A stretch of 64,000 nt of DNA from Naegleria gruberi (taxonomy: Eukaryota). The translations under genes were made by a program, and so were the position numbers. The notes beneath the pieces were generated by a model that did no database searches, was not told the DNA's origin, and saw only the letters and a list, made by a program, of their open reading frames with translations. The first letter of the stretch is position 1. Each line of letters begins with the position of its first letter. Where the stretch lies: the NCBI GenBank assembly GCA_000004985.1, contig GG738859.1; one strand, 5' to 3'. Positions 18,295-56,687 of this stretch are shown piece by piece.

Positions 18295-20901
18295 ATGGAA
18301 AAGAATTGGAGTGAAACTTCGCTCGAGGATGGGCAGAATATAATACCATCGGATCAAGATATTCGGGTGGTGGAGAATTATTTTCAAAATGATAATAGTG
18401 CTGGTGAAGGAGCTAATCTTGTTGTTGGAGGTGCTGGAGAAGATAATAATTTGGAAATTACAAATCAGCAACAACATCATCATCATGTGATCAATCCGGG
18501 AACAACAATAACACCACCAACCTATTCAAATTTACAACATTATTTATTTCTATCACTTCCATTATGTAGTATTCAATTAAATAATTTACCAGATAATTTC
18601 GGAGGTATTTCACCAGTTACACAAAGTTTTACTAGTTCTTCCTCAGAATTTGAACAGAATAGACTCACTTTTAATGATGCTAATAGGGAAGTTGCAATTT
18701 ATAATAGCAAAAAGTTCATGTTATTTCCATTGATGAAGGGTGATATTATTACAAAAAGGTAGAGTACATTAATTTTGTAATGATTAATAATTTCTCAAGA
18801 CTTCCAACACTAGTTGACTTGAAGGGATTAATGCCAACTGCTGCAAAATCATCGAGTAAGAGAACCTTCTTTGCCATGCTGTATGAACAGAGAAGATTGG
18901 TCATATTTTCAGTTATTTCATCAGATTCTTCTAAACCACATAGCGCAGAATATTTCACTCACTTTGATTTGATGGAGAAAAAAACTAGACCAAATATTAT
19001 TTTGGATTTTCATTGGATTTCAGATTCTTATTTATTAGTTGTGTCGACATACTCAATTGATTTTATTAGTGTATGTATTTTAGTGATTGAAATATTGGAT
19101 TGATTTATAATTTGGAATTATTGGAAATAGGTTAAGGAAAAACACAAACCTGTAAAGACCTTGAAATCAATTTATGAGAATATTCGGTTCTGTAAATTCT
19201 CGCCAATTGATAACTTGTTGGTATTAGCTTTGGAGGGTAAAAATACAGCTCTCTATCCTTACATTATTACTCCAAGTGGCCAAATGAACAAATTGACAAA
19301 AGTTGAGCTAACAGAACTCAATATCGGAGATCATAAACCAATCAAGAGCTCTGAAACTTTCCTCGTTTCAATGTATGTAGTATAATTTGAGATGAATCAT
19401 TTTTGACATTCTATTTCAATACAACAGGTATGGTCGTTGCTGTCTCGTTTGCATATGCTCAGCCAATCATGAAATGCATATCTTCAAGTACAAGCCACAA
19501 AATGTTCAAGCTTTTGTACAACAAAGAATTTTCAATTTATTCTCTGGATCAAACATTGCATTGAATGTTGTTGATTCTCTCTTAATTGTTCACAACTTGG
19601 ATGATAAAACCTCAACTGCCTATGATGTTTTCACAAAACAAGATTACCCAGTCTCTCCTCCTCTTTCCATTTCTCCACATTATACTGTTAAGGATACACT
19701 GACACAGGCTGATATGCAAGTTGATGCTACTGATAGATTATGTAAGTATACGATTGGATTTATTTCCATATTGAGTCACTTTTGTAATTATATTATTAAT
19801 TTAACATTATGTTGAAATAGACAAATCCGATTCTTGGACCTACTGGTATCCAAATTATATCCTCGATAAGGAATTGGGTTATGTTTTCGAGCTTAAACTT
19901 TCCATCTCTCACATGCCAATCAATATGAGAAATAGAAAGGATTCTATAAAATTCCTATTCAGAAGAGTTAACAGTAAGGCTTTGCTCTTGACAACACTGA
20001 GAACTTTTATTGAATCTAAGAGTGAGGAGTTGAAGACTATATCAGAAATTTTAGAACTTGTTAACAAGTATTATTGGAATCAATTAGTTAAACTTGAAAC
20101 TGAAAAACAGGAAAAGTTTAGTGAAAAATTGAAACGTCTTTCCGTATTTACCAAACCTAAAGCTTTGGAATTTGTAGATATTAACATGCTCACAGAAATT
20201 GAAGAAGGTGATGAAATGCAAGAAACACAAATTAATACCATTGGTTATCCAATAATTATGCAATCAGACATGTACAAATTTGTATTTGTTCCAATTGATG
20301 AAGCAGGATCTCTATCTACCATAGAGCTAGTCTCAGTTTTGGTTGAATATGTCAGAGGACTGAAGAAGAGTAATGTGCCAGTTCACAATTTTATTCAAAA
20401 GTTGCTCATTGAACTGCTGGTGAAGGATAATAATTTTTCAATGTTGCATCAATTGATCCAATTCAAGGTCATTGGCGATAGTCAATTGACTGCATTGCAA
20501 ATGTTGCACATTTCCGAAAAGTATCCTCCAGCTTATCAAATTTCCCTTGATATTCTAAAGAGATTGAATGATTATGATTTGTTGTGTGAAGTTCTCCTTT
20601 CAAGGAAGGATGTTTCCAGAGTTTTAGAATTAATGATGGAAAATAGTGAAAAGCATCCATTCAAAATTTCCTACGCTCAAGTATTTGAAGCTGGTAAGTA
20701 GTGTTAAATAATAATTCAATAATTAATTTCACACAATTCAATACAGCTGTCTCCCAAAATAATCCAACTCTTTTCTATACCACTTATGAAATTTTGCAAA
20801 GAATTAACTTGAAACAAAGAAAAACCCTCCTCTTCTCACCTGAAGACAAATGCAAAGAGTATGATGATCTCTACGCTAAACTATTTGTCAATGTAAAATA
20901 A
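18295..20901 (+). CDS. six-exon conserved protein, possibly RMC1/Mic1-like; exons 18295..18758, 18800..19070, 19131..19372, 19428..19741, 19821..20693, 20747..20901
   Basis: Six ORF-track segments join through GT..AG introns with consistent phases, giving about 772 aa. Family assignment is weak. Confidence 0.45.
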
Positions 20902-20910
20902 AACTACTAT

Positions 20911-21924
20911 TTATACTAATACTCTGGAATGCTCTTTCGTTTCAGTATCATATTTGATCATGGCAATTTCCTTACTTTTTGGATAGTTGCCAGAGGTGAA
21001 ACTCAAACAGTTACCCACAATTGAGGAGCAGTACACACCTTTCGAGGAATCCACTGAGCTATGGAAGTGTCCATGGAATGTGGCAGCTGGTTCATGCTTT
21101 TCAATAAATCTTCTAAGTGCAATTGATCCACAATGGAAATCACTGATATTATCACAGCATGTATCTTTTGGAGGCATGTGACAGATCCATATTTGATTCT
21201 TACAATTTTCTTTAGAAAATGAATACCTCTCCTCAATTCTTTCCAATTCTCTTTCAATAGAAAAGGCCTTCACCAATTCACTATCATTTACATCAAATTT
21301 GAAATGATAAAATCCTTCCTTTCCTCTAAAATGTGAATCCTCACTTGGATTCTCCTCCAACAATTGTCGAGTATTTGCATATTCATTATTGAGAATAATA
21401 TCATGGAGTTGCTGAGCATCAAAAGTAGTATATCCTTTCGTTCTTATCACATAAGAATCAACATTCTGAGCCAAAGTATCCTTCACATCCTTTGTATCAA
21501 ATCTCTCAAAATCCTTCTTATGTCCCTTCATGAAAACAATCGATGAGTAGGCCATTATTTCCAAATCATCATTCACTCTCATCATTTCATTATACAACAC
21601 TACAATATTTGTCTCTTTTGTTTTTTCCTTCATAAACTCAACATCGGAATATAAATCAGCATTTCCAAAGCAAACATACACCTTTCCATGCTTGAATTGC
21701 TTCAATATTGGAAGTAGTTTGTCCTCAAAATAGACTCGATGCTTATCAATTCCCTTGTTACTATCGAGATGGGAATATTCATCTAAATTGGATTCCTTCT
21801 TATTCTTCAAATATAAATCACCTCCGATAATAACAGCATCCATCTGATGATCATTTGCATAATTGATCAATTTTTGATATTGGGTAAGATTGCCGTGTAG
21901 ATCTGAGGAGAAGAGTAATTTCAT
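20911..21924 (-). CDS. calcineurin-like metallophosphoesterase
   Basis: Motifs SDLHGN, GGDLY, GNAD and HGHFH. 337 aa. Lies about 97 bp downstream of the RdRP on the same strand. Confidence 0.65.
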   Translation of the reverse strand: MKLLFSSDLHGNLTQYQKLINYANDHQMDAVIIGGDLYLKNKKESNLDEYSHLDSNKGIDKHRVYFEDKLLPILKQFKHGKVYVCFGNADLYSDVEFMKEKTKETNIVVLYNEMMRVNDDLEIMAYSSIVFMKGHKKDFERFDTKDVKDTLAQNVDSYVIRTKGYTTFDAQQLHDIILNNEYANTRQLLEENPSEDSHFRGKEGFYHFKFDVNDSELVKAFSIERELERIEERYSFSKENCKNQIWICHMPPKDTCCDNISDFHCGSIALRRFIEKHEPAATFHGHFHSSVDSSKGVYCSSIVGNCLSFTSGNYPKSKEIAMIKYDTETKEHSRVLV

Positions 21925-22021
21925 TTTTTTTGAATTGATTTTTAAAATATTCTTTACAATGATTGTAATGTTCCATGTTCACAAGTTTATTAGTGACCGG
22001 TATTTAAATAGTTTGTAAATT

Positions 22022-25000
22022 TTAAATTGTAGGAGGGTTTACATTTTCGAAAGATTCAAATGCTACAATTTCATCCATAACAAGCCAATAAAATGTAATA
22101 CCAAAGAAATCTCTCATTTTCCTCTTCTTATTGTCATTTCTTACAGCAATATAGAAAACTGTGGCAACTGCTTGTCTTGGAAATACTTTACTCTCATAGT
22201 CGTCCAATACTTCAACTGCCTTGTCATGATAATATTTGGTGAAATGTTTAACAATTTCACTAATTTCCAATTTTAGTTTGTAATGGTTCTTTCCACATCT
22301 GACCTCTAATTCCTTTGTATTGAAAAATCCTCCTAATAATTCAACTTCTGATGAGACAAAGTATTGTTGCATGAGCTTTCTCAAATCTGATTTGTACTCT
22401 TCATAAATTTCTAATGCTGCATTGTAGGCGTGCATTATATTTTCATCAAAATAATCCCAGTCGTCATCTATGAGCATTGTTTTGAGATTAGGAAGTTTGA
22501 TAAAGACAGCATCTAAAATTTCAAGATGAGGATCCAGTTTTATCTCTTGAATAGAATCTAGAATGCCAAGCTTTTTTCCGTGAACTGTTTTTTCAAAAAA
22601 GACAGCCTTATCATAAATACTTCCAATAACATCTTCAGAGTGATATGTTTTCTTACCAAAAACTCTTGGCATATAGTGAGGTCTACTGTTGGAGAAAAGT
22701 TCAGTAGGAAGTGGTTTTCTGACACCAGTTTTGGCATAGTCAACTTGATAACTGTGGTGTTTGGCCAATTTCAAACAAGGTTCACTTCTTAGCCCATCCC
22801 CCTCCTTATCGTAATGTTCCAAATGCAAGAATGCAACAACACCAAGGTTGTCATTAATAATGTACTCTGTTAAGAATTCTCTAATAACTCGATAGTCACA
22901 TCCGTCGTGCTTTTCTTCAGGTGGAAGTCCCTCATAATTCATTGGGGGATATTCCTCAAAATTAACTAGGAGTGGATCCCAAAATACTTGGAAAAAGTCG
23001 CCGTCATAGTCGCCTCCACTCATTTTGTTAGCTGCAGGTCTATTGCCTTTTTGGCTGAATACAATTACATCTCTAAGGTGTGATAATTTGCTAATCTTTT
23101 CTGGATCTGTAACAGCTTTGAACTTTCTAATGTCACCAGGGTGAAGGCATGGTGATCTTGTAATTGCTACAGTTCCACTCAAAGTGCCACCATTCACAAA
23201 ACAATTGTCATCATAAAGATCAGAGTCAGAGTTTTCCAATTCAGAAAGTTGGATAAATACTTCATCCTCTTCCAACACTCCATAAAAGTCCACAACTCCC
23301 ATCAATAAAAGAGCCTTGTCAAGAATAATTCTACCATTCTTGAGATCATTCAATCTGTTTCTGATCAAACTATCCTTGATATTGCAAAATACTGGTTCTA
23401 TTTGGTAAAAGAATTTAATGTCCTCTCCCGATTGCACAACTTTAGAAAAGTCGTATTGAGAATCCAAATAGTTGAGAGAGGCCACTTTCTTCATATTCTT
23501 TCCAACGATATTATCTTGTGATTTTCTCAACACTCTCCTCATATACTTCTTATCATTAAATAACTTTTTGATTTCTTCAAGATCTCTATCGAGTAGTTGT
23601 AAAAATACCGAATCTGATACCTTATTGGAACTCAATAAAGCAATCAATTGTCTATTCAAACTAGCAAATCTATTTCTTTTCGAGTAAGTAATCAGTTCAA
23701 ACTCGCTACTGGAGGAATCTATGAACTTTTCCTGACTCTTAGATAGGAGAAGATCCAAATCTGAATATAAATGAATATCAGGATCTACAACAACAACTCC
23801 CTTCAACCCTCCCATACGAAATTGGAATGCTGATGGTATGTATTCTTTGCCAGCAAATGAGATTTGGAATTTCTTGGTTAATTCTACAGCAAATTCTAGT
23901 GATATTCTTCCTACACCATCTGTAAACACATAATTGTTTCTGGTAATGTCTGGAATAATTTCATACTCTTTTGAGATGCCTTCATACGTGTGTGAAAAGC
24001 ATTGTCCAATTCTTGCTGCATACCTTGCTTTAACTTTGATATGAGAAAAATTACCAAGAGAATTGATAATATTTCTTGGGGTGAAACTTCCATTCGAATA
24101 AACGAACCAAGAACTGGAACATTGTTAGAAATGTTTGAAATAATATAAGACGTACCTGTGGGCTCTAAGTTGACTGGTAGAATAAGCAAGCATTTCATAT
24201 TTTCTGTTAAAAACTAGAAGGCCCTTCTTTAGCACAATCTCAATTCTCTCATGCAAGTTTGTAAATTTTTCAGCACTAAGTTTATGAAGATCTTCATCGC
24301 AGAATGTGATTCTCAAAAAGTGATCTTCATTCTTTTCCTTATATTTTCTCAAAACTCTATTACCACCCTCAACTGATTTGTCAAAAAATCTCCAACCTGT
24401 TGGTGTAATCATTACTTTACGAATATTGAAAAAGTTTGTATCAAAATCAATGAATGCCGTGTCATTATGTTTCAATTTTTGATCAGCTAACCGTTGATTG
24501 AAATGTTCTAGGAATTCAGATGGATAGATGTTTTTCTCATTCAATACTTCTCTCATGGCACGGTCAACCATTTCATAGTCATGATCTTTGTTAATATATC
24601 TTGTAATAGTGTCCACTATTGCTTCCAATCTTTCTCTATTGTGTAGAATTCCTGGTATCTTAGTATCTAAGCAAAACAGCAAATATACTGTATTGAAGGA
24701 AAAATTATGAAACAATGGAAAGTCCAAGCTTTCATCATATTGGAATGTATCGATTTGCTTCCTTTTGATTTTCTTATCTCTCATTACCAAAGGATATGGA
24801 TAATTATGACCCTTCAGTAGGGAACTCACATCAGATGAAACAGTGAGCAGTAGAGATCTACCCCATCTGAAATTGTTCAACCACATGGATGATATGCTAT
24901 CTTGTTGTGAATAGTCAGGAGCTGCCATTCTTGTACGAAATGCTTCATCAGGCCTCTTACGGTAGATGAATGGCACATTTCTAAGTTCAATGGCTAATTC

Positions 25001-26068
25001 TGTGACACCAACAATAACACGTCTCACATTCTCTCGCTTAATGTCCATCCAATAGTCATGATTAGAGTTGAATGTTGCTTGTAATTTAATATCACCAGTT
25101 GCAGACCAGTATACTAATGATACCTTTCTCTCCAATAATCCATGTCCTACTTGTTCCTTATTTACACATAAAAATGTTTCATGCTTATTGTCATCAAAAT
25201 TACCAATCTCCATATTTATCCAGTTTAACTCCACTGACCCATACTCCACTAAATCATTGGGTTTTTCAGATTTGGTTGTTGATTTTGATGATGTTACACT
25301 TTCTTCAATTATTACAGGTGGTCCAATAATCTGCACAGGTTGTTTCTTCTTTTCTTTGGCCTTATCCTTCTTTTGAGTTGGTTCCTTCTTTTCCTTTGGT
25401 TTTAGACTGGGAAAGTTATTTTCATTATCAAGGGCCACAGGTTTTGGTGGCTGATTGACAATTACAGGTTGATGAATATTGGTAACTGGTGGATTGTGAA
25501 TTCTATCATTATCATTCCTCCTATAATTGTTATTTCCTCCTTTATAATTATTATTGTCTCCTCTTTGCTCTTTATATTCTCGATTATTATTATTTCCTGA
25601 ATATTCCCTATGCTTACTCGATTTATCATTGTTATCATTGAAATTATTATTATTATTGTAATTATTATTTCCTCTATATTCTCTATTGTTGTTGCCATTA
25701 CGCGAGTATCTATCATTATTATCATTGTAATTCTTCTGATAATTATTATTGTAATTGTAATTATTATTTTGATAATAGCGATTAGGAGGAGGCTTCTTGC
25801 TATTATCATAACTGCTACCATTACTCGGATTGATTAAATCACCAGTAGTATTATTAATTATATAATTTCTCGCTTTGTTTTGTTGATAAAAAGCCTTTTT
25901 CTGAGATGATTCGGAAACATGTTCCTCTGAATCATTAATTATTAATTCCTCTTCATTATGATGAGAACTACTACTACTACTACTACTTGCTCCACCATTC
26001 CTAGTACTACTTGCTCCTCTATAAATCTGATAATGTTGCTGATTTGTCTTTTGATTGGGATTAAACAT
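22022..26068 (-). CDS. eukaryotic RNA-dependent RNA polymerase (RdRP; RRF/EGO/Rdp1 family) with N-terminal prion-like low-complexity domain; exons 24156..26068 and 22022..24113
   Basis: Catalytic motif GGDYDGDFFQVFWD plus flanking RdRP blocks. One 42-nt intron (24114..24155, GTACGT..CCAG) joins the two ORFs in phase. About 1334 aa. Confidence 0.85.
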
Positions 26069-26665
26069 TTTTTTTATCTATTGAGCTTCAATTATCTTGT
26101 TGTTTCTTTGTCTTTGGATTATTGGACTAACGATATCATTTGTTTGGTTGATGTACAGTGTGGTAATTTGGATTTGTAAATCTTATAACAATGAGACAAC
26201 AAGCTGAAATAAATAATCACTCGATTTACTCCTTACCAAAGATTATTGAGTATAACAGTATAAGGGAGAGGTGGGAATGATGCAGTGTAAGTTATTTCTT
26301 CTTTGGAGTTTGGTTCTTTTTCATTCAACTTGATATTCGAATAATTGTTTGAGTCCTCAATACCATAACACATGGAAGAGAATTGCTTATTTATGTCACC
26401 AGTAACACAATGATGACAGCAAGGTGGCTTTGAACTTAATGCAATTGCTTGTTGATGTGTTTTGAAGCTATGGGAGTACTTGTAATCTCAAAATGGTACC
26501 TAACCCTAAATGGAAAAGATTGCAAAAAAGTGTTTTCTTATTTCTAAAAACAACTAATAAAGGACAACTGTTGATTATCTCCAACAATAATTGCGAGGAA
26601 GTTACGTTTGTTGCAACAATCAAGAAACATCAATCTCAAAAACAAACTAGAAAAAACAACAGAGA

Positions 26666-28390
26666 ATGTCACTCACTGTTTATTCGAAACCATCATCATT
26701 ATTCGAAATTAATGAAATACTTAATACAGTTTCCTCCCTTTATGCTTCATCTTTAAATTCTACAACTAACACCTCAATGATACCATGTGATTTGCGGATT
26801 TTTGAAATGTCATACCTCTCAACAAAACCCAACATGACAGCACAAGATTATAACAATATTTGCCCCGACACAATATTCGTTCCAATAGTTGCATGGATTG
26901 AAATTGCAATCTTCATTCCCTTATTTCTTCTCTCATTTATTGGAATTATTTGGAAGAGAAAAAGTGGACACATACAGGCGAGGAATCTCTCTTGTCTAAT
27001 TCCCATACTCATTGCTTCCTTTTTCTCAACCATCTTCCCATCATTGAGGTGGGCCTTAGGGAGAGATCTCTTTCCGTGTGGTGTTTTAATTTTTATATTA
27101 TTTCACACGTCGTGGGCAATGATTCTACCGCCAATACTTAATATGTTTTCCTTTATTGTGAGACATGCCTTGTACAGGTTATTGACTGGGAATTTTAAGG
27201 ATTTGAGTGATCAGTTGGGAATGGATAGGAATTCATTAAAATTAGATGTTAAAAAACTTTCGAATACGATGGAGGAAATGCAACACGCAGCCGAGTCGGT
27301 CATGCAAAATTCGACATCGATAGGATCTGTCAGCACTTTGCAATCAAATTCCGATCTAACAGCCACAAAAAGCAAATCAAAAAGTGCTGATTTAGTGAGT
27401 ACTATTGGCTCTTTGGATTTTACTCCAAATGAAGTGAGATTATTCAAATTTTACAAGTTTTTATTAAGTGCCAAATTTCGAGTACTGACCTATTTGATTT
27501 GTTTTGTGATTCACATATCGTTGTGGTTGATTTTGGGCTTAATTCAATTGACCAATCCTGAGTCTGCCTCTCCATATTACAATACTGGAATTAACAATTT
27601 TTTTGGAGCTTGTACGATGCATTCAGGAACAGTGGCAGTTTTCTGTGGATTATTTGCATCTTACTTGGCTGCTCTGGTTGTCCTGCTCTTGATTTCCTTC
27701 TTCTTGGAGAAGGATACATGGGGAATCAAAATAGAAACTTCAGTAATGAGCATTCTCCTCCTCATTGCTGTCATTAATTATCTTGTCTGTCCATACATTA
27801 CCATTATAAGAACTTATACTGATTATTTCTTTCCGTATGGTCAATCGATGGTTATGTATTCCATCATTCAACTCTTTGTTTTTGTAACCATTCCACTGTG
27901 CAGATCCATAAAAGGAGATGGGATATTTCCAGAGGAAATTGCTTCCACAATGTTCGAAAGAATTCTCCTCAATAAGGAAACTTTCAAAATAGCCCTCGAT
28001 TTCAGCAGGAGATCCTACTGTTCAGAACCAGTCCTATGTTTCGACAATATTGAAAATTATAAGAAAGCTCGAAGAAAATCAAACAAGCTCAAAATTGCAC
28101 TTCACATTCTCAATACCCATCTGAAGAAAGGTGCTCCACTCGAGTTGAATATTGACAAGATTGAGGAACGATTCAAATCACTCCAAGAGAACATTTCCAA
28201 TCAGGATGAGAAGAAAATTGATGAAGAAGTTGGATTGTTGAGAATTCACTGTTTACAAGACATGTCTGAAATGATGTATCGATTGATTTTGAGTGATAAG
28301 GTAGTTAAAGAGGTGGCAATGATGAATTCTGGTAAAATTCCAGTGGATTCACTAAATTCACCAGTTTCGTCTGAACTTTCTAATGTTTAA
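26666..28390 (+). CDS. seven-transmembrane receptor with C-terminal RGS domain (7TM-RGS)
   Basis: About 7 hydrophobic helices in the N-terminal 400 aa, then an RGS-like segment (IASTMFERILLNKETFKIALDFSRRSYCSEPVLCFDNIENYKKA...). Confidence 0.6.
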   Translation: MSLTVYSKPSSLFEINEILNTVSSLYASSLNSTTNTSMIPCDLRIFEMSYLSTKPNMTAQDYNNICPDTIFVPIVAWIEIAIFIPLFLLSFIGIIWKRKSGHIQARNLSCLIPILIASFFSTIFPSLRWALGRDLFPCGVLIFILFHTSWAMILPPILNMFSFIVRHALYRLLTGNFKDLSDQLGMDRNSLKLDVKKLSNTMEEMQHAAESVMQNSTSIGSVSTLQSNSDLTATKSKSKSADLVSTIGSLDFTPNEVRLFKFYKFLLSAKFRVLTYLICFVIHISLWLILGLIQLTNPESASPYYNTGINNFFGACTMHSGTVAVFCGLFASYLAALVVLLLISFFLEKDTWGIKIETSVMSILLLIAVINYLVCPYITIIRTYTDYFFPYGQSMVMYSIIQLFVFVTIPLCRSIKGDGIFPEEIASTMFERILLNKETFKIALDFSRRSYCSEPVLCFDNIENYKKARRKSNKLKIALHILNTHLKKGAPLELNIDKIEERFKSLQENISNQDEKKIDEEVGLLRIHCLQDMSEMMYRLILSDKVVKEVAMMNSGKIPVDSLNSPVSSELSNV

Positions 28391-28407
28391 TTTTGAGATT
28401 GAACAAA

Positions 28408-32170: not shown

Positions 32171-33019
32171 CTATTTATTCGATATAACTTCCAATTTGAT
32201 AAACCATCCTCCATCTACAGCTTGTTTTTCATCAGCAGCTCCAACAGGACATGTCCAACCACAATATCCACCCCCAGTCAATGAAATAATTTGGTCATCC
32301 TTTGAGAAATTCCAAGTTCCATAACTACAATAACCGTTATGTAAAAAGCTAACACTGAATTTGAAAGGAGTACCACTCAGATCACACATTGCTCTTCCGT
32401 CATCGACTGAACCCCCTTCACAACCAAAACAAGTTGCATACGAAACTTCCTTTGTTTTCCAATTATGATGATTACATACGCCAGTTGACTTGGAAAATGT
32501 ATGATCTCCTGTATGAATCATTAAAGTTTCTGGATTAATTCTCAATCGATACCAACGAGTTATAATATCAGCATCATTCCAACTCCAGGGTTTTCTTCTA
32601 GGAACAGTATAGGTTGAGTAATTATTAGTTGGAGAAGGCAAAATTAAATAGTAACAATTCTTGGCTCCTTGATAGAATGTATATGTTCCATAATTTGGTA
32701 TTTCAAATTCTTGATATCTGTACGAACAAGAAACCAAATACCAATTCCAACAAGTCAACTGAAAACTCAAACAAGTCTCCTCATCATTCTCAATAAACCC
32801 AAAAATCTCCCTCAATAAATCATCAGGAATTACAAATGTTTCCATCACTGATTTTTTATATTGTGATTCAACACTTTGGAATAATAAATCATTAATATTG
32901 GAGAGGAATTGGTGGGATGATGAGGTTGTGGACGTTTCATCAGAATGATGATCCTTCTTGTTGTGATGAGAAGAGGAATTTGATGATGAATTTTTAGAGA
33001 AGAGTTTGCGAAGGACCAT
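32171..33019 (-). CDS. F-box-like protein with Cys/Trp-rich C-terminal domain
   Basis: IPDDLLREIFGFI resembles the F-box core. N-terminal S-rich tract. 282 aa. Confidence 0.45.
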   Translation of the reverse strand: MVLRKLFSKNSSSNSSSHHNKKDHHSDETSTTSSSHQFLSNINDLLFQSVESQYKKSVMETFVIPDDLLREIFGFIENDEETCLSFQLTCWNWYLVSCSYRYQEFEIPNYGTYTFYQGAKNCYYLILPSPTNNYSTYTVPRRKPWSWNDADIITRWYRLRINPETLMIHTGDHTFSKSTGVCNHHNWKTKEVSYATCFGCEGGSVDDGRAMCDLSGTPFKFSVSFLHNGYCSYGTWNFSKDDQIISLTGGGYCGWTCPVGAADEKQAVDGGWFIKLEVISNK

Positions 33020-54939: not shown

Positions 54940-56687
54940 ATGTCTAACACTACCCAACGTTTAAAGTCTAGAGGAACTTCATTCCTTAGACAAATGAAGG
55001 ATATTGGAACGCTAGCCGTTTCATCATTTGATGATGTAAAGAAGAGTTTAGCAAAAGCAACAAATCAAGACCCTGTACCACCAAAGGAAAAACACGTAAA
55101 GAGTAAGTAGTATAGTAAAATCCTTGCTAACAACATGATGATTTTACAATGATGGTGGTTTATTGTGGTTGTTTAACTAAAATCAATGTAATGATGATGA
55201 TAATAATGAATATTTGTTGGATCTTTAGAATTGATTATTGCTACGGAAACAAATCGTGAACTTAATATGGCGGAATTTGCAAAGGCAGTTTGTAGAGTTT
55301 ATAGAAAGAGTAGTGATTGGCTTACTGCATCAAAAGGATTGCAATTACTTCATAGAATTATTCAAGATGGTTCTGCAGAATTCTGTGATGCAATTGTTCA
55401 AAACGATCCTGAAAAACGTTTCAACATGAGTAAATTCAAGGACAGAAACACTAGTGAAGCAATGGACCAAACTCCATTGGTTAAACAATATTGTAGATAC
55501 TTAGAAGAAAGACTTATCATATATCGTATTTATCAACTCAAGTCACTCCTCCCAGATATGACATTGGATGCCTATGTTACTACGGGTGACATTACTGGAT
55601 GGTTGGATTTGACAGAAAGTTTACTGAGAGCAAGCAATGAACTTGTGGAGTGTTTCGAAATTGTTAGAGCTAAAAAGTCTGTGCTCGGCAATGGAGCTGC
55701 CATTGGATGTTTTACTTTGTGTTTGGATGACAGTTTCGTTTTATACAAATTGTTGGGTGTTTGTGCTACTAAAATTTTGGGTATGTTTTATTTTTGTAAA
55801 TGGATAACGGTTAATTAACATTTTTAGATGAATTTTACAAGGTCTCCATAGTTGATGCTAAGAGAGCTCTCAAAGTTTATGAAAAGTATTGTGAAAGTGC
55901 CAAGCGTCTCGAAAGTATGTTTGAATTCAGTAAGAGTGTACCACAAATCTTCCTCAAGGCTAAACCACCATCCCTCAAATTCAAACCAGAGAGTGTTATT
56001 GAACCAATGAGAGAATATCTTCAATCTAATGGAGGATCTAAAAAGAAACTTGCAATGGAGGATGTTCCAGTAACAGAATTATCATCAATTCTTTCAAAGA
56101 ATGAAATTGATCTCATCAAGGTTTCTTCAGATTTTGACGAAGCACCAAACGGGGGAAGAACAAGTCGTTCATCTAGCATTAAACAAAGAAAGTCTTCAAT
56201 TCTCAGCTCTGAAGAAAAGCCAAAGCCTTCACCATCTAAACCTGCCGTTGATTTGGATGATTTACTTTCATTTGATGCTCCCCCTGCCACCAATATTCCT
56301 CATTCTAACAATGGATTCAATCAACCTACAATCAATCAACCTTCCCGTCAAGATGCTGCCCTTAACATTTTGAGTCAATTCGATCAACCAACCAACAACA
56401 ATTATGGATATGGAAATAATAATCAAATGTGGAACAATAATCAATATGGTGCTAACAACAATCAATATGGAAACCAACCACAATACGGAAATAATCAATG
56501 GAACAATGGAAACCAACAACAATACGGTAACAATCAATATGGAAATCAACCATATGGTAACAATAATGGCTACCAAAATAATAATCCATACTCAAATCCA
56601 TACGGAAACAATCCTTATGGAAATAGTAATCCTTATTCTCAACAGCAACAACCTAACAATAATAACAGCAATAATCCATACTTCTAA
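54940..56687 (+). CDS. ANTH-domain clathrin assembly protein (AP180/CALM/Yap180-like) with Q/N/Y-rich C-terminal tail; exons 54940..55102, 55229..55780 and 55828..56687
   Basis: KATNQDPVPPKEKHVK|LIIATE...AKAVCRVYR...LLHRIIQDGS matches the ANTH N-terminus. The two introns (GTAAGT..TTTAG and GTATGT..TTTAG) are in phase. Confidence 0.8.

What the first reader, a model, noticed from the sequence alone, without database searches (positions are those of the whole stretch)
25490..25870. Prion-like N/Y/R/G low-complexity domain at the N-terminus of the RdRP
Residues about 70-190 of the RdRP are almost pure N, Y, R, G, D and K (…NNNYNYNNNYQKNYNDNNDRYSRNGNNNREYRGNNNYNNNNNFNDNN…GDNNNYKGGNNNYRRNDNDR). 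This RGG/YN composition is typical of phase-separating RNA-binding proteins. It is followed by a KKE-rich basic stretch before the conserved RdRP fold. RdRPs are not usually drawn with such a domain. It could target the enzyme to RNA granules.
Basis: partly seen in the sequence, partly recalled or inferred. Interest (0 to 1): 0.5.

Follow-up and report, generated by a model that had tools for sequence, protein, structure and literature searches.

The report
Asparagine-rich disordered tail on Naegleria RdRP
A Naegleria RNA-silencing polymerase carries a real, translated stretch of about 95 residues made mostly of asparagine, tyrosine and arginine in its floppy N-terminal tail, but related species lack this composition, so it is most likely an ordinary species-specific low-complexity expansion.

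Summary
A minus-strand, two-exon gene (26068..22022) encodes a 1334-aa cellular RdRP: Pfam RdRP E 1e-154, intact DYDGD motif, fold closest to plant RDR2. Residues 96-190 (25499-25783) are 41% N, 14% Y and 12% R, with 37 Q/N in 80 residues. None of 265 sampled RdRP relatives exceeds 22.

The tract is very probably coding. It lies between the only possible start codon and the conserved fold, in one open frame, with no strong splice donor. AlphaFold gives pLDDT below 50 for residues 1-276.

- There are no RGG or [G/S]Y[G/S] motifs.
- 28% of residues are charged, against 3-11% in Sup35, Ure2 and FUS.
- A PAPA-like score is negative.
- The orthologues in N. lovaniensis and N. fowleri have a shorter tail (about 190 aa) that is S/T/H-rich, has 0-2 tyrosines and is not Q/N-rich.

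What the three species share is a disordered tail with net charge +11 to +12, the MF start and perhaps a short FP[A/S]L island.

Best reading: an AT-driven, slippage-type N-rich expansion (GC 23.5%, 90% AAT codons, degenerate 9-21-nt repeats) inside a genus-conserved basic tail. A role in condensates is possible but untested. Interest is low.

The parts
24156..26068 (-). RdRP exon 1 (residues 1-637 plus 2 nt of codon 638). The ATG is at 26068-26066.
   Evidence: ORF and splice junction read from the sequence. An in-frame stop lies 3 codons upstream of the ATG. Residues 1-286 contain no other Met.
24114..24155 (-). 42-nt intron: GTACGT ... TTCTAAC ... CAG
   Evidence: Removing it restores the frame and yields the conserved block HSSWFVYSNG...GNFSHIKV. 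N. lovaniensis is collinear across this point.
22022..24113 (-). RdRP exon 2 (residues 638-1334 plus stop)
   Evidence: phmmer to solved RDR2 chains 7w82/7eu0 gives E 4e-70 to 2e-68.
25241..26068 (-). Predicted disordered N-terminal tail, residues 1-276, net charge +11
   Evidence: AlphaFold2 with a 60-sequence alignment gives pLDDT below 50 for residues 1-276 and 90 or more from about residue 281.
25499..25783 (-). N/Y/R low-complexity core, residues 96-190. This is the finding.
   Evidence: N 41%, Y 14%, R 12%, 28% charged. GC 23.5% against 34.6-34.8% for the rest of the gene. AAT is used for 35 of 39 Asn codons. Degenerate tandem periods of 3, 9, 12, 18 and 21 nt. Repeated peptides: NNNREY twice, GNNN four times, NNNY five times.
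25967..25987 (-). (AGT)7 encoding Ser7 (residues 28-34) in the same tail
   Evidence: TRF reports 7 perfect copies. It is the longest perfect trinucleotide run in the 64-kb window.
25397..25438 (-). Candidate conserved short island ALDNENNFPSLKPK (residues 211-224)
   Evidence: It matches TLDLEKDFPALGKS in N. lovaniensis and FDLDKDFPALGQK in N. fowleri. The local alignment to N. lovaniensis is reached by only 2-6 of 500 shuffles. It is not significant against N. fowleri alone.
25334..25399 (-). K/E-rich basic stretch, residues 224-245 (possible bipartite NLS; inference only)
   Evidence: Read from the sequence. The post-motif segment is 29% K with net charge +7. It is not conserved in sequence in the orthologues.
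22607..24409 (-). Pfam RdRP domain PF05183, residues 554-1140 (spans the intron)
   Evidence: hmmscan E 1.1e-154, 516.7 bits, profile positions 1-581 of 582.
22997..23011 (-). Catalytic D-x-D-G-D motif (DYDGD, residues 1006-1010)
   Evidence: Read from the sequence. The columns D1006, D1008, G1009 and D1010 are nearly invariant in the 60-sequence alignment.

Best explanation
The tract is a translated, intrinsically disordered, asparagine-rich low-complexity expansion. It arose in this Naegleria lineage (probably N. gruberi or a close relative), most likely by slippage-type duplication of AAT-rich codons in an AT-rich genome. It sits inside an N-terminal tail that the orthologous RdRPs of the genus share.

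Shown:
- The tail precedes a complete RDR2-like fold.
- It is predicted to be disordered.
- The N/Y/R composition is confined to this species.
- Tail length is 188-270 aa, and the net charge of +11 to +12 is similar in all three species.

Inferred:
- The tail as a whole acts as a flexible, basic appendage for non-specific RNA contact, partner binding through the FP[A/S]L island, or localisation through the K-rich stretch.
- The N/Y/R insertion is not needed for polymerase function.
- Its roughly 13 Tyr and 11 Arg, scattered among Asn spacers, would add weak multivalent self- and RNA-association. This could bias the enzyme towards RNP condensates, but as a by-product and not as a conserved, selected function.
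For: Identity of the protein:
- Pfam RdRP E 1e-154.
- DYDGD motif present.
- Foldseek best hits are RDR2 chains 7eu0_M and 7w82, E 1e-57, about 950 aligned columns.

The tract is coding:
- One open frame runs from the only available ATG to the fold, with an in-frame stop 3 codons upstream.
- The conserved block VE[FY]G..L.W...EIGNF starts upstream of the next Met.
- There is no GT[AT]NGT donor in the first 810 nt.
- The start MF- is shared with both orthologues.

Disorder: pLDDT is about 28 for residues 1-276 and 90 or more afterwards.

Lineage specificity:
- The orthologues P0001 and P0002 (57% and 52% identity over the fold) have tails of 192 and 188 aa. These are 21% S and 10-12% T, with 2 and 0 Tyr, and at most 16 Q/N per 80.
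- tblastx and phmmer similarity begins only around residue 254-270.
- Paralogues P0003 and P0005 lack the tail.

Slippage signature:
- GC 23.5% against about 35%.
- AAT 35 of 39 against 46 of 63 elsewhere in the gene, Fisher p = 0.047.
- Degenerate 9-21-nt periods and repeated NNNREY, GNNNY and NDNND units.

Conserved property: net charge +11, +12 and +12.

Precedent: the Plasmodium literature debates whether species-specific N-rich low-complexity regions in AT-rich genomes have any function or evolve neutrally (PMC3749963, PMC5762703).
Against: - The genome is not saturated with such tracts. Only 2 of 46 long ORFs in the window are Q/N-rich, so this is not mere proteome background.
- The repeats are degenerate, with at most 5 perfect AAT units. 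The tract is therefore not a fresh microsatellite and has been kept in frame for some time, which is compatible with some selective retention.
- Tyr and Arg are also enriched (p = 4e-5 and 1e-3). AT bias alone explains Asn and perhaps Tyr (TAT), but not Arg or Gly.
- Only two orthologues were available, and both are distant (52-57% identity). Conservation within the N. gruberi clade is unknown.
- No transcript or protein data were available.
Confidence: 0.65

Rival explanations
1. The tract is a functional prion-like or phase-separating domain. Tyr/Arg 'stickers' spaced by Asn drive self-association and RNA-dependent condensation. This concentrates the RdRP in silencing bodies, doing in cis what SGS3 does for RDR6 and MUT-16 does for RRF-1 in trans.
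For: - 37 Q/N per 80 residues.
- +49.7 bits of yeast-PrD-like composition, unique among the homologues.
- 13 Tyr and 11 Arg evenly interspersed.
- Predicted disorder.
- Rarity among RdRPs, 0 of 265, and relative rarity in the local genome, 2 of 46 ORFs.
- In other systems RdRPs do work in condensates scaffolded by disordered Q/N- or PrLD-containing partners (10.64898/2026.01.02.697351; PMC6072111).
Against: - The composition is not conserved in the two available orthologues, which lack Tyr almost entirely.
- 28% of residues are charged, and the PAPA-like maximum is 0.006 against at least 0.10 for real PrDs.
- There are no RGG or [G/S]Y[G/S] motifs.
- Even for SGS3, the PrLD and siRNA bodies are reported as dispensable for basal siRNA production (10.64898/2026.01.02.697351).
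Confidence: 0.2
2. The tract is a strain-level polymorphic repeat or an assembly artefact of an AT-rich repeat. Its length here would then not be representative of the species.
For: - The DNA is repetitive and AT-rich.
- No second strain or close relative could be found for comparison. No exact-match gene is on record, and there was no metagenome relative.
Against: - The repeats are imperfect: 61-87% matches, and the longest perfect AAT run is 5 units. Such repeats are fairly stable and easy to assemble.
- The frame is intact on both sides.
- The (AGT)7 run at 25967-25987 is a better candidate for length polymorphism than the N-rich core.
Confidence: 0.1
3. The tract is not part of the protein. 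It would be an unrecognised in-frame intron, or translation would start downstream.
For: - AT-rich low-complexity DNA can resemble intron sequence.
- One other frame is also nearly open (2 stops), so the open frame alone is weaker evidence than usual.
Against: - There is no Met between residue 1 and residue 287, and residue 287 lies inside the conserved fold.
- There is no strong donor in the first 810 nt, whereas the one real intron has GTACGT and TTCTAAC.
- The tract is in phase with both flanks, and the third frame has 46 stops.
- The orthologues also carry a tail of about 190 aa in the same exon as the start of the fold.
Confidence: 0.03

Closest known systems
Asparagine-rich low-complexity regions of AT-rich protist proteomes (Plasmodium falciparum, Dictyostelium discoideum)
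   Same: - N-dominated, AAT-biased and locally more AT-rich than the rest of the gene.
- Degenerate short tandem periodicity.
- Lies outside the conserved fold and is absent from or different in orthologues.
- Passes the 30-per-80 Q/N census used for those proteomes (PMC8409284, PMC3749963, PMC5762703).
   Different: - This genome is only moderately AT-rich (33.5% GC) and such tracts are uncommon, 2 of 46 long ORFs. About 24% of proteins are reported to carry them in P. falciparum and D. discoideum (PMC8409284, PMC11537047).
- The tract is not homopolymeric. It is strongly mixed with Tyr, Arg and Asp.
Yeast-type prion domains (Sup35 N, Ure2 N) and FUS-family low-complexity domains
   Same: - Q/N content of 44%, similar to Sup35N (44%) and Ure2N (48%).
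- Tyr 14%, similar to Sup35N (15%) and FUS (13%).
- Predicted disorder.
   Different: - 28% charged residues against 3-11%.
- R 12% against 0-4%, and G 6% against 16-25% in Sup35N and FUS.
- PAPA-like score below threshold.
- No [G/S]Y[G/S] motifs and no oligopeptide repeats of the Sup35 type.
Condensate scaffolds that recruit RdRPs: plant SGS3 (PrLD, siRNA bodies, RDR6) and C. elegans MUT-16 (Q/P-rich IDR, Mutator foci, RRF-1)
   Same: A disordered Q/N-type region is associated with an RNAi-amplifying RdRP.
   Different: - In those systems the disordered region is on a separate scaffold protein, and its composition pattern is conserved among orthologues (stated for MUT-16 in PMC6072111).
- Here the region is fused to the polymerase and is not conserved.
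- No localisation data exist for Naegleria.
Plant RDR2/RDR1-type and fungal QDE-1-type cellular RdRPs
   Same: - The folded part (residues 277-1334) has the family's Pfam domain, the DxDGD motif and the overall fold.
- Foldseek to 7eu0_M and 7w82 gives E 1e-57. phmmer gives E 4e-70 to RDR2 and 8e-25 to QDE-1.
   Different: - It carries an extra 276-residue disordered tail in front of the whole RDR architecture.
- The N-terminal folded domain (residues 277 to about 540) has detectable sequence relatives only in Naegleria at E of 1e-30 or better.

Membership tests
Eukaryotic cellular RdRP (Pfam PF05183; RDR/QDE-1 family) | Full-length match to the RdRP profile above the gathering score | tested here: met
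   516.7 bits against a cut-off of 23.8, profile positions 1-581 of 582, E 1.1e-154.
Eukaryotic cellular RdRP (Pfam PF05183; RDR/QDE-1 family) | Catalytic D-x-D-G-D loop | tested here: met
   DYDGD at residues 1006-1010 (22997-23011). The columns are nearly invariant in 60 homologues.
Eukaryotic cellular RdRP (Pfam PF05183; RDR/QDE-1 family) | RDR/QDE-1 fold | tested here: met
   AlphaFold pTM 0.74, with 618 residues at pLDDT 90 or more. Foldseek to RDR2 gives E 1e-57, and to QDE-1 E 1e-33.
Q/N-rich 'prion-like' region (census definition) | At least 30 Q+N in 80 consecutive residues (definition quoted in PMC8409284) | tested here: met
   37 of 80, starting at residue 101-102.
Yeast-type prion domain (PLAAC/PAPA sense) | Composition resembling experimentally defined yeast PrDs (PLAAC-type log-odds) | tested here: inconclusive
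   PLAAC itself was not available.
Yeast-type prion domain (PLAAC/PAPA sense) | Positive prion propensity (PAPA at or above about 0.05) and depletion of charged residues | tested here: not met
   The simplified PAPA-like maximum is 0.006 for residues 96-190 and -0.024 for residues 1-270, against 0.10-0.107 for Sup35N, Ure2N and FUS LC. Charged residues are 28% against 3-11%. The propensity table and threshold were recalled from memory, and the FoldIndex step was omitted.
Yeast-type prion domain (PLAAC/PAPA sense) | Intrinsic disorder | tested here: met
   pLDDT 24-34 across residues 1-270 in a model whose fold reaches 90 or more.
RGG/RG-box RNA-binding region | Clustered RGG or RG repeats in a Gly-rich context | tested here: not met
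   0 RGG, 3 isolated RG (residues 17, 132, 169), 0 GR, and G is 6%.
FUS-family low-complexity domain | Repeated [G/S]Y[G/S] motifs in an S/G/Q-rich, nearly uncharged context | tested here: not met
   0 [G/S]Y[G/S] motifs and 28% charged residues.
Neutral AT-driven N-rich low-complexity region (Plasmodium/Dictyostelium type) | AAT-biased, locally AT-enriched DNA with a degenerate tandem structure | tested here: met
   GC 23.5% against about 35%. AAT 90% against 73%, p = 0.047. TRF periods 3-21.
Neutral AT-driven N-rich low-complexity region (Plasmodium/Dictyostelium type) | Not conserved in orthologues; lies outside the folded domains | tested here: met
   The orthologous tails are S/T/H-rich, and no alignment exists upstream of about residue 254. 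The tract lies in the segment with pLDDT below 50.
Neutral AT-driven N-rich low-complexity region (Plasmodium/Dictyostelium type) | Length polymorphism between strains, or neutral substitution pattern | not testable with these tools
   No sequence closer than 57% identity was found in the protein, metagenome or exact-match searches.
Condensate-forming domain | Demixing in vitro, or foci in vivo that depend on the region | not testable with these tools
   This needs an experiment.

The most novel reading that the evidence does not exclude
This Naegleria lineage may have fused a condensate-forming Tyr/Arg/Asn-rich module directly to its RDR-type polymerase. The enzyme would then scaffold its own small-RNA amplification bodies, without needing a separate SGS3- or MUT-16-like partner. 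The genus-wide basic tail with its FP[A/S]L island would be the ancestral docking or RNA-binding appendage from which the module grew.
Probability: 0.12. Interest if true: 0.55.

Novelty: new member of a known kind. Interest (0 to 1): 0.2.

Why it matters
If the tract is only a neutral expansion, its value is practical. It confirms the gene model: start at 26068, one 42-nt intron, and a 276-residue tail. It also warns that 'prion-like' calls based on Q/N content alone over-predict in AT-rich protists.

If the tract does promote condensation, it would be a natural case of an RdRP carrying its own scaffold. Naegleria would then be a simple system for asking whether condensates matter for siRNA amplification, a question that recent SGS3 work has reopened.

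The more robust and possibly more useful observation is the part that is conserved across the genus. This is a disordered tail of +11 to +12 net charge with a short FP[A/S]L island in front of a complete RDR2-like fold.

Tried and rejected
- The neighbouring unspliced gene, 26666-28390, is not on record. The source species is therefore absent from the collection, and the species (probably N. gruberi, from 33.5% GC against 37.3-37.5% for the N. lovaniensis and N. fowleri loci) could not be confirmed.
- A metagenome scan with residues 191-637 found no relative.
- An exhaustive HMMER search with residues 200-637 found only Naegleria proteins at E of 1e-30 or better. No other heterolobosean orthologue could be used to test conservation of the tail.
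- Synteny could not support orthology. The flanks of the N. lovaniensis and N. fowleri loci share nothing with the window. Orthology rests on best-hit identity and the shared architecture.
- MAFFT did not align the FP[A/S]L island. A local alignment with shuffles gave only marginal support.
- A full-text search for DFPSL, DFPAL, EFPSL and EFPAL returned nothing relevant.
- Searches for papers on Naegleria RdRPs or Naegleria low-complexity regions returned nothing specific.
- PLAAC, PrionW and a proper PAPA with FoldIndex were not available. Home-made surrogates were used and are labelled as such.
- The intron hypothesis was rejected. See the rival explanations.

Full report
**What is there**

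The finding lies in a minus-strand gene. Exon 1 runs from the ATG at 26068 down to 24156. A 42-nt intron (24155-24114; GTACGT ... TTCTAAC ... CAG) follows. Exon 2 runs from 24113 to the stop codon at 22024-22022.

The spliced product is 1334 aa. It matches Pfam RdRP (PF05183) end to end at residues 554-1140, E 1.1e-154. It keeps the catalytic DYDGD loop at residues 1006-1010. Its closest solved relatives are plant RDR2 (phmmer E 4e-70) and fungal QDE-1 (E 8e-25).

The window is from a Naegleria species.
- The best database relatives are RdRPs of N. lovaniensis (P0001, 57% identity, 100% coverage of the fold) and N. fowleri (P0002, 52%).
- The source species itself is not in the searchable collections.
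- The window's 33.5% GC, against 37.3-37.5% for the two other species' loci, fits N. gruberi from my own knowledge. That was not confirmed.

**Checking the observation**

The compositional core is residues 96-190 (25499-25783):
- 39 N, 13 Y, 11 R, 7 D, 6 G and 5 K out of 95 residues, so 85% comes from these six residue types.
- 28% of residues are charged, and the net charge is +5.

Measured against the amino-acid composition of the window's 46 long open frames (N 7.0%, Y 3.6%, R 3.9%), the excesses have binomial tails of 1e-20 for N, 4e-5 for Y and 1e-3 for R.

The best 80-residue window contains 37 Q/N. The K/E-rich stretch that follows (residues 224-245) is also real.

The description errs on one point. 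There is no RGG motif at all, only three isolated RG dipeptides, no [G/S]Y[G/S] motif, and little glycine. 'RGG/YN composition' should therefore read 'N/Y/R/D composition'.

**Is it translated?**

Several things say yes.
- The stop-free stretch begins only three codons upstream of the ATG at 26068.
- Residues 1-286 contain no other methionine.
- The block that is conserved with all Naegleria paralogues, VE[FY]G..L.W...E[IF]GNF, begins at about residue 274, upstream of the next Met. The fold cannot be made without translating from 26068 through the tract.
- The tract is in phase with both flanks.
- The first 810 nt of the CDS contain no GT[AT]NGT donor, whereas the one real intron has GTACGT and a TTCTAAC branch site.
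- Both orthologues start with MF-, like this protein. They carry their own tails of about 190 residues in the same exon as the beginning of the fold.

The open frame by itself is weaker evidence than usual. AAT repeats also stay open in the ATA/ATT frame (2 stops), while the third frame has 46 stops. No transcript data were available.

**Structure**

I ran AlphaFold2 on residues 1-1149 with a 60-sequence alignment. It gives pLDDT 24-34 for residues 1-270 and below 50 up to residue 276. From about residue 281 onward pLDDT is 90 or more, and pTM is 0.74.

Foldseek aligns about 950 columns of the model to RDR2 (7eu0_M, 7w82; E 1e-57). The 276-residue tail is therefore an addition in front of a complete RDR architecture. 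It is not a linker within that architecture.

**Comparison with relatives**

This is the decisive part.

| Feature | This window | N. lovaniensis orthologue | N. fowleri orthologue |
|---|---|---|---|
| Tail length (aa) | 270 | 192 | 188 |
| Main composition | 21% N | 21% S, 10% T, 6% H | 21% S, 12% T, 6% H |
| Tyrosines in tail | 18 | 2 | 0 |
| Net charge of tail | +11 | +12 | +12 |

- The largest Q/N count per 80 residues in either orthologue is 16.
- Sequence similarity to the window begins only at about residue 254-270, by tblastx and by phmmer.
- The N. lovaniensis paralogues P0003 and P0005 have no tail.

Three things are shared by the three orthologues:
- the MF start;
- the presence and rough length of a polar, hydrophobic-poor tail with the net charges shown in the table;
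- a short island: ALDNENNFPSLKPK here, TLDLEKDFPALGKS in N. lovaniensis and FDLDKDFPALGQK in N. fowleri.

Statistical support for the island is modest. Only 2-6 of 500 shuffles reach the observed local-alignment score against N. lovaniensis, and the score against N. fowleri alone is not significant.

Relative to that island, the segment upstream of it is 211 residues here and 83 and 75 residues in the other two species. The N/Y/R tract therefore looks like an expansion of that upstream segment.

Across a wider sample, none of the 120 best RdRP homologues exceeds 17 Q/N per 80 residues. None of 265 RdRP-family proteins collected in two searches exceeds 22. The tract is thus unusual for the family, and it is also specific to one lineage.

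**DNA signature**

- The core is 23.5% GC, against 34.6-34.8% for the rest of the gene.
- 35 of its 39 Asn codons are AAT, against 46 of 63 elsewhere in the gene (Fisher p = 0.047).
- Tandem Repeats Finder reports overlapping degenerate periods of 3, 9, 12, 18 and 21 nt with 61-87% matches.
- At the peptide level NNNREY occurs twice, GNNN four times and NNNY five times.
- Perfect AAT runs reach only five units.

This is the signature of an older slippage or duplication-derived low-complexity region that has since diverged. It is not a fresh microsatellite.

In this window only one other long ORF is Q/N-rich: the C-terminal tail of an ANTH-domain protein at 55917-56687, with 46 Q/N per 80 residues. 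Such tracts are therefore present but not pervasive in this genome.

**Is it prion-like?**

- **Q/N census criterion** (at least 30 Q/N in 80 residues; PMC8409284): yes.
- **Compositional log-odds.** The best 60-residue core scores +49.7 bits. The Naegleria orthologues and paralogues score about -20, and the best of 120 homologues scores +24. The real PLAAC would probably flag the tract.
- **Charge.** Experimentally defined prion domains and FUS-type domains are depleted in charged residues (PMC8409284). This tract has 28% charged residues, against 6%, 11% and 3% for Sup35N, Ure2N and FUS LC.
- **Prion propensity.** A simplified PAPA scan (propensity table recalled from memory, no FoldIndex step) peaks at 0.006, against 0.10-0.107 for the three controls.

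The label 'prion-like' therefore holds for Q/N content only. An amyloid-prion prediction is not supported.

The tract does contain about 13 Tyr and 11 Arg spread evenly among Asn spacers. In the sticker-and-spacer view of FUS-family proteins (my own knowledge), this would favour weak multivalent association, especially with RNA. That is an inference and not a result.

**Explanation**

The best-supported reading (confidence 0.65) is a species- or clade-specific, AT-driven asparagine-rich expansion inside a genus-conserved, disordered, basic N-terminal tail of an RDR2-like polymerase.

The conserved properties of the tail are its charge, its disorder, the possible FP[A/S]L island and the lysines that follow it. 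These are the candidates for function: RNA contact, partner docking or nuclear import. The N/Y/R composition is not required in the genus.

It has an attractive analogy. Plant RDR6 works in siRNA bodies scaffolded by the PrLD of SGS3, and C. elegans RRF-1 is recruited to Mutator foci by the disordered Q/P-rich MUT-16 (10.64898/2026.01.02.697351; PMC6072111). But in those systems the disordered module sits on a separate, conserved scaffold. Even for SGS3, the PrLD and the bodies are reported to be dispensable for basal siRNA production.

Strain-level polymorphism or an assembly artefact (0.1) could not be tested. An intron or a downstream start (0.03) is unlikely.

**Verdict**

The feature is real and the coordinates are right. 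It is a new example of a well-known kind of sequence, a lineage-specific N-rich low-complexity region, in an unusual host protein. The functional claim is unproven, and the lack of conservation weakens it. Interest is low (0.2). The most novel reading not excluded, a self-scaffolding RdRP, has about 0.12 probability.

Noticed in passing
window 55231-55818 and 55917-56687 (+): An ANTH-domain protein (PF07651, E 2e-15) continues into a Q/N/Y/G-rich C-terminal tail (NNQYGANNNQYGNQPQYGNN...), with 46 Q/N in 80 residues. It is the only other Q/N-rich long ORF of 46 in the window. Being almost uncharged, it is compositionally much closer to canonical prion-like domains than the RdRP tract is.
   Followed up: partly
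window 25967-25987 (-), RdRP residues 28-34: A perfect (AGT)7 repeat encodes Ser7. It is the longest perfect trinucleotide repeat in the 64-kb window, so it is the likeliest site of length polymorphism in this gene.
   Followed up: partly
window 25397-25438 (-), RdRP residues 211-224; L001 and L002 orthologues at residues about 82-96: A short island [LF]D-x-[ED]-x-[DN]-F-P-[AS]-L followed by lysines is the only alignable piece of the disordered tails of the three Naegleria orthologues. It is a possible docking motif. Support is marginal: 2-6 of 500 shuffles reach the score against N. lovaniensis, and the match to N. fowleri alone is not significant. No literature match was found.
   Followed up: partly
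window 24114-24155 (-): A very short (42-nt) intron with a yeast-like branch sequence TTCTAAC. The N. lovaniensis gene is collinear across this point and has its intron elsewhere, near L001 6900-6940.
   Followed up: partly
window 20900-28400 compared with L001 and L002: The genes flanking the RdRP differ completely between species. Here they are a metallophosphoesterase downstream, and a divergently transcribed RGS-domain membrane protein followed by an EF-G/EF-2-like GTPase upstream. In N. lovaniensis and N. fowleri they are CRAL_TRIO and Ank/hemerythrin genes. tblastx found no shared flank.
   Followed up: partly
window 24410-25240 (-), RdRP residues 277-553: The folded domain in front of the Pfam RdRP region (a beta-rich part at residues 279-440, then a helical part) has sequence relatives only in Naegleria at E of 1e-30 or better among 1.84 billion representative proteins. 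The model as a whole nevertheless superposes on RDR2 over about 950 columns.
   Followed up: partly
window 32171-33019 (-): A 282-aa ORF has a weak GON-domain match (PF08685, E 3.6e-5, just above the gathering score) and an S-rich, H-rich N-terminus.
   Followed up: no
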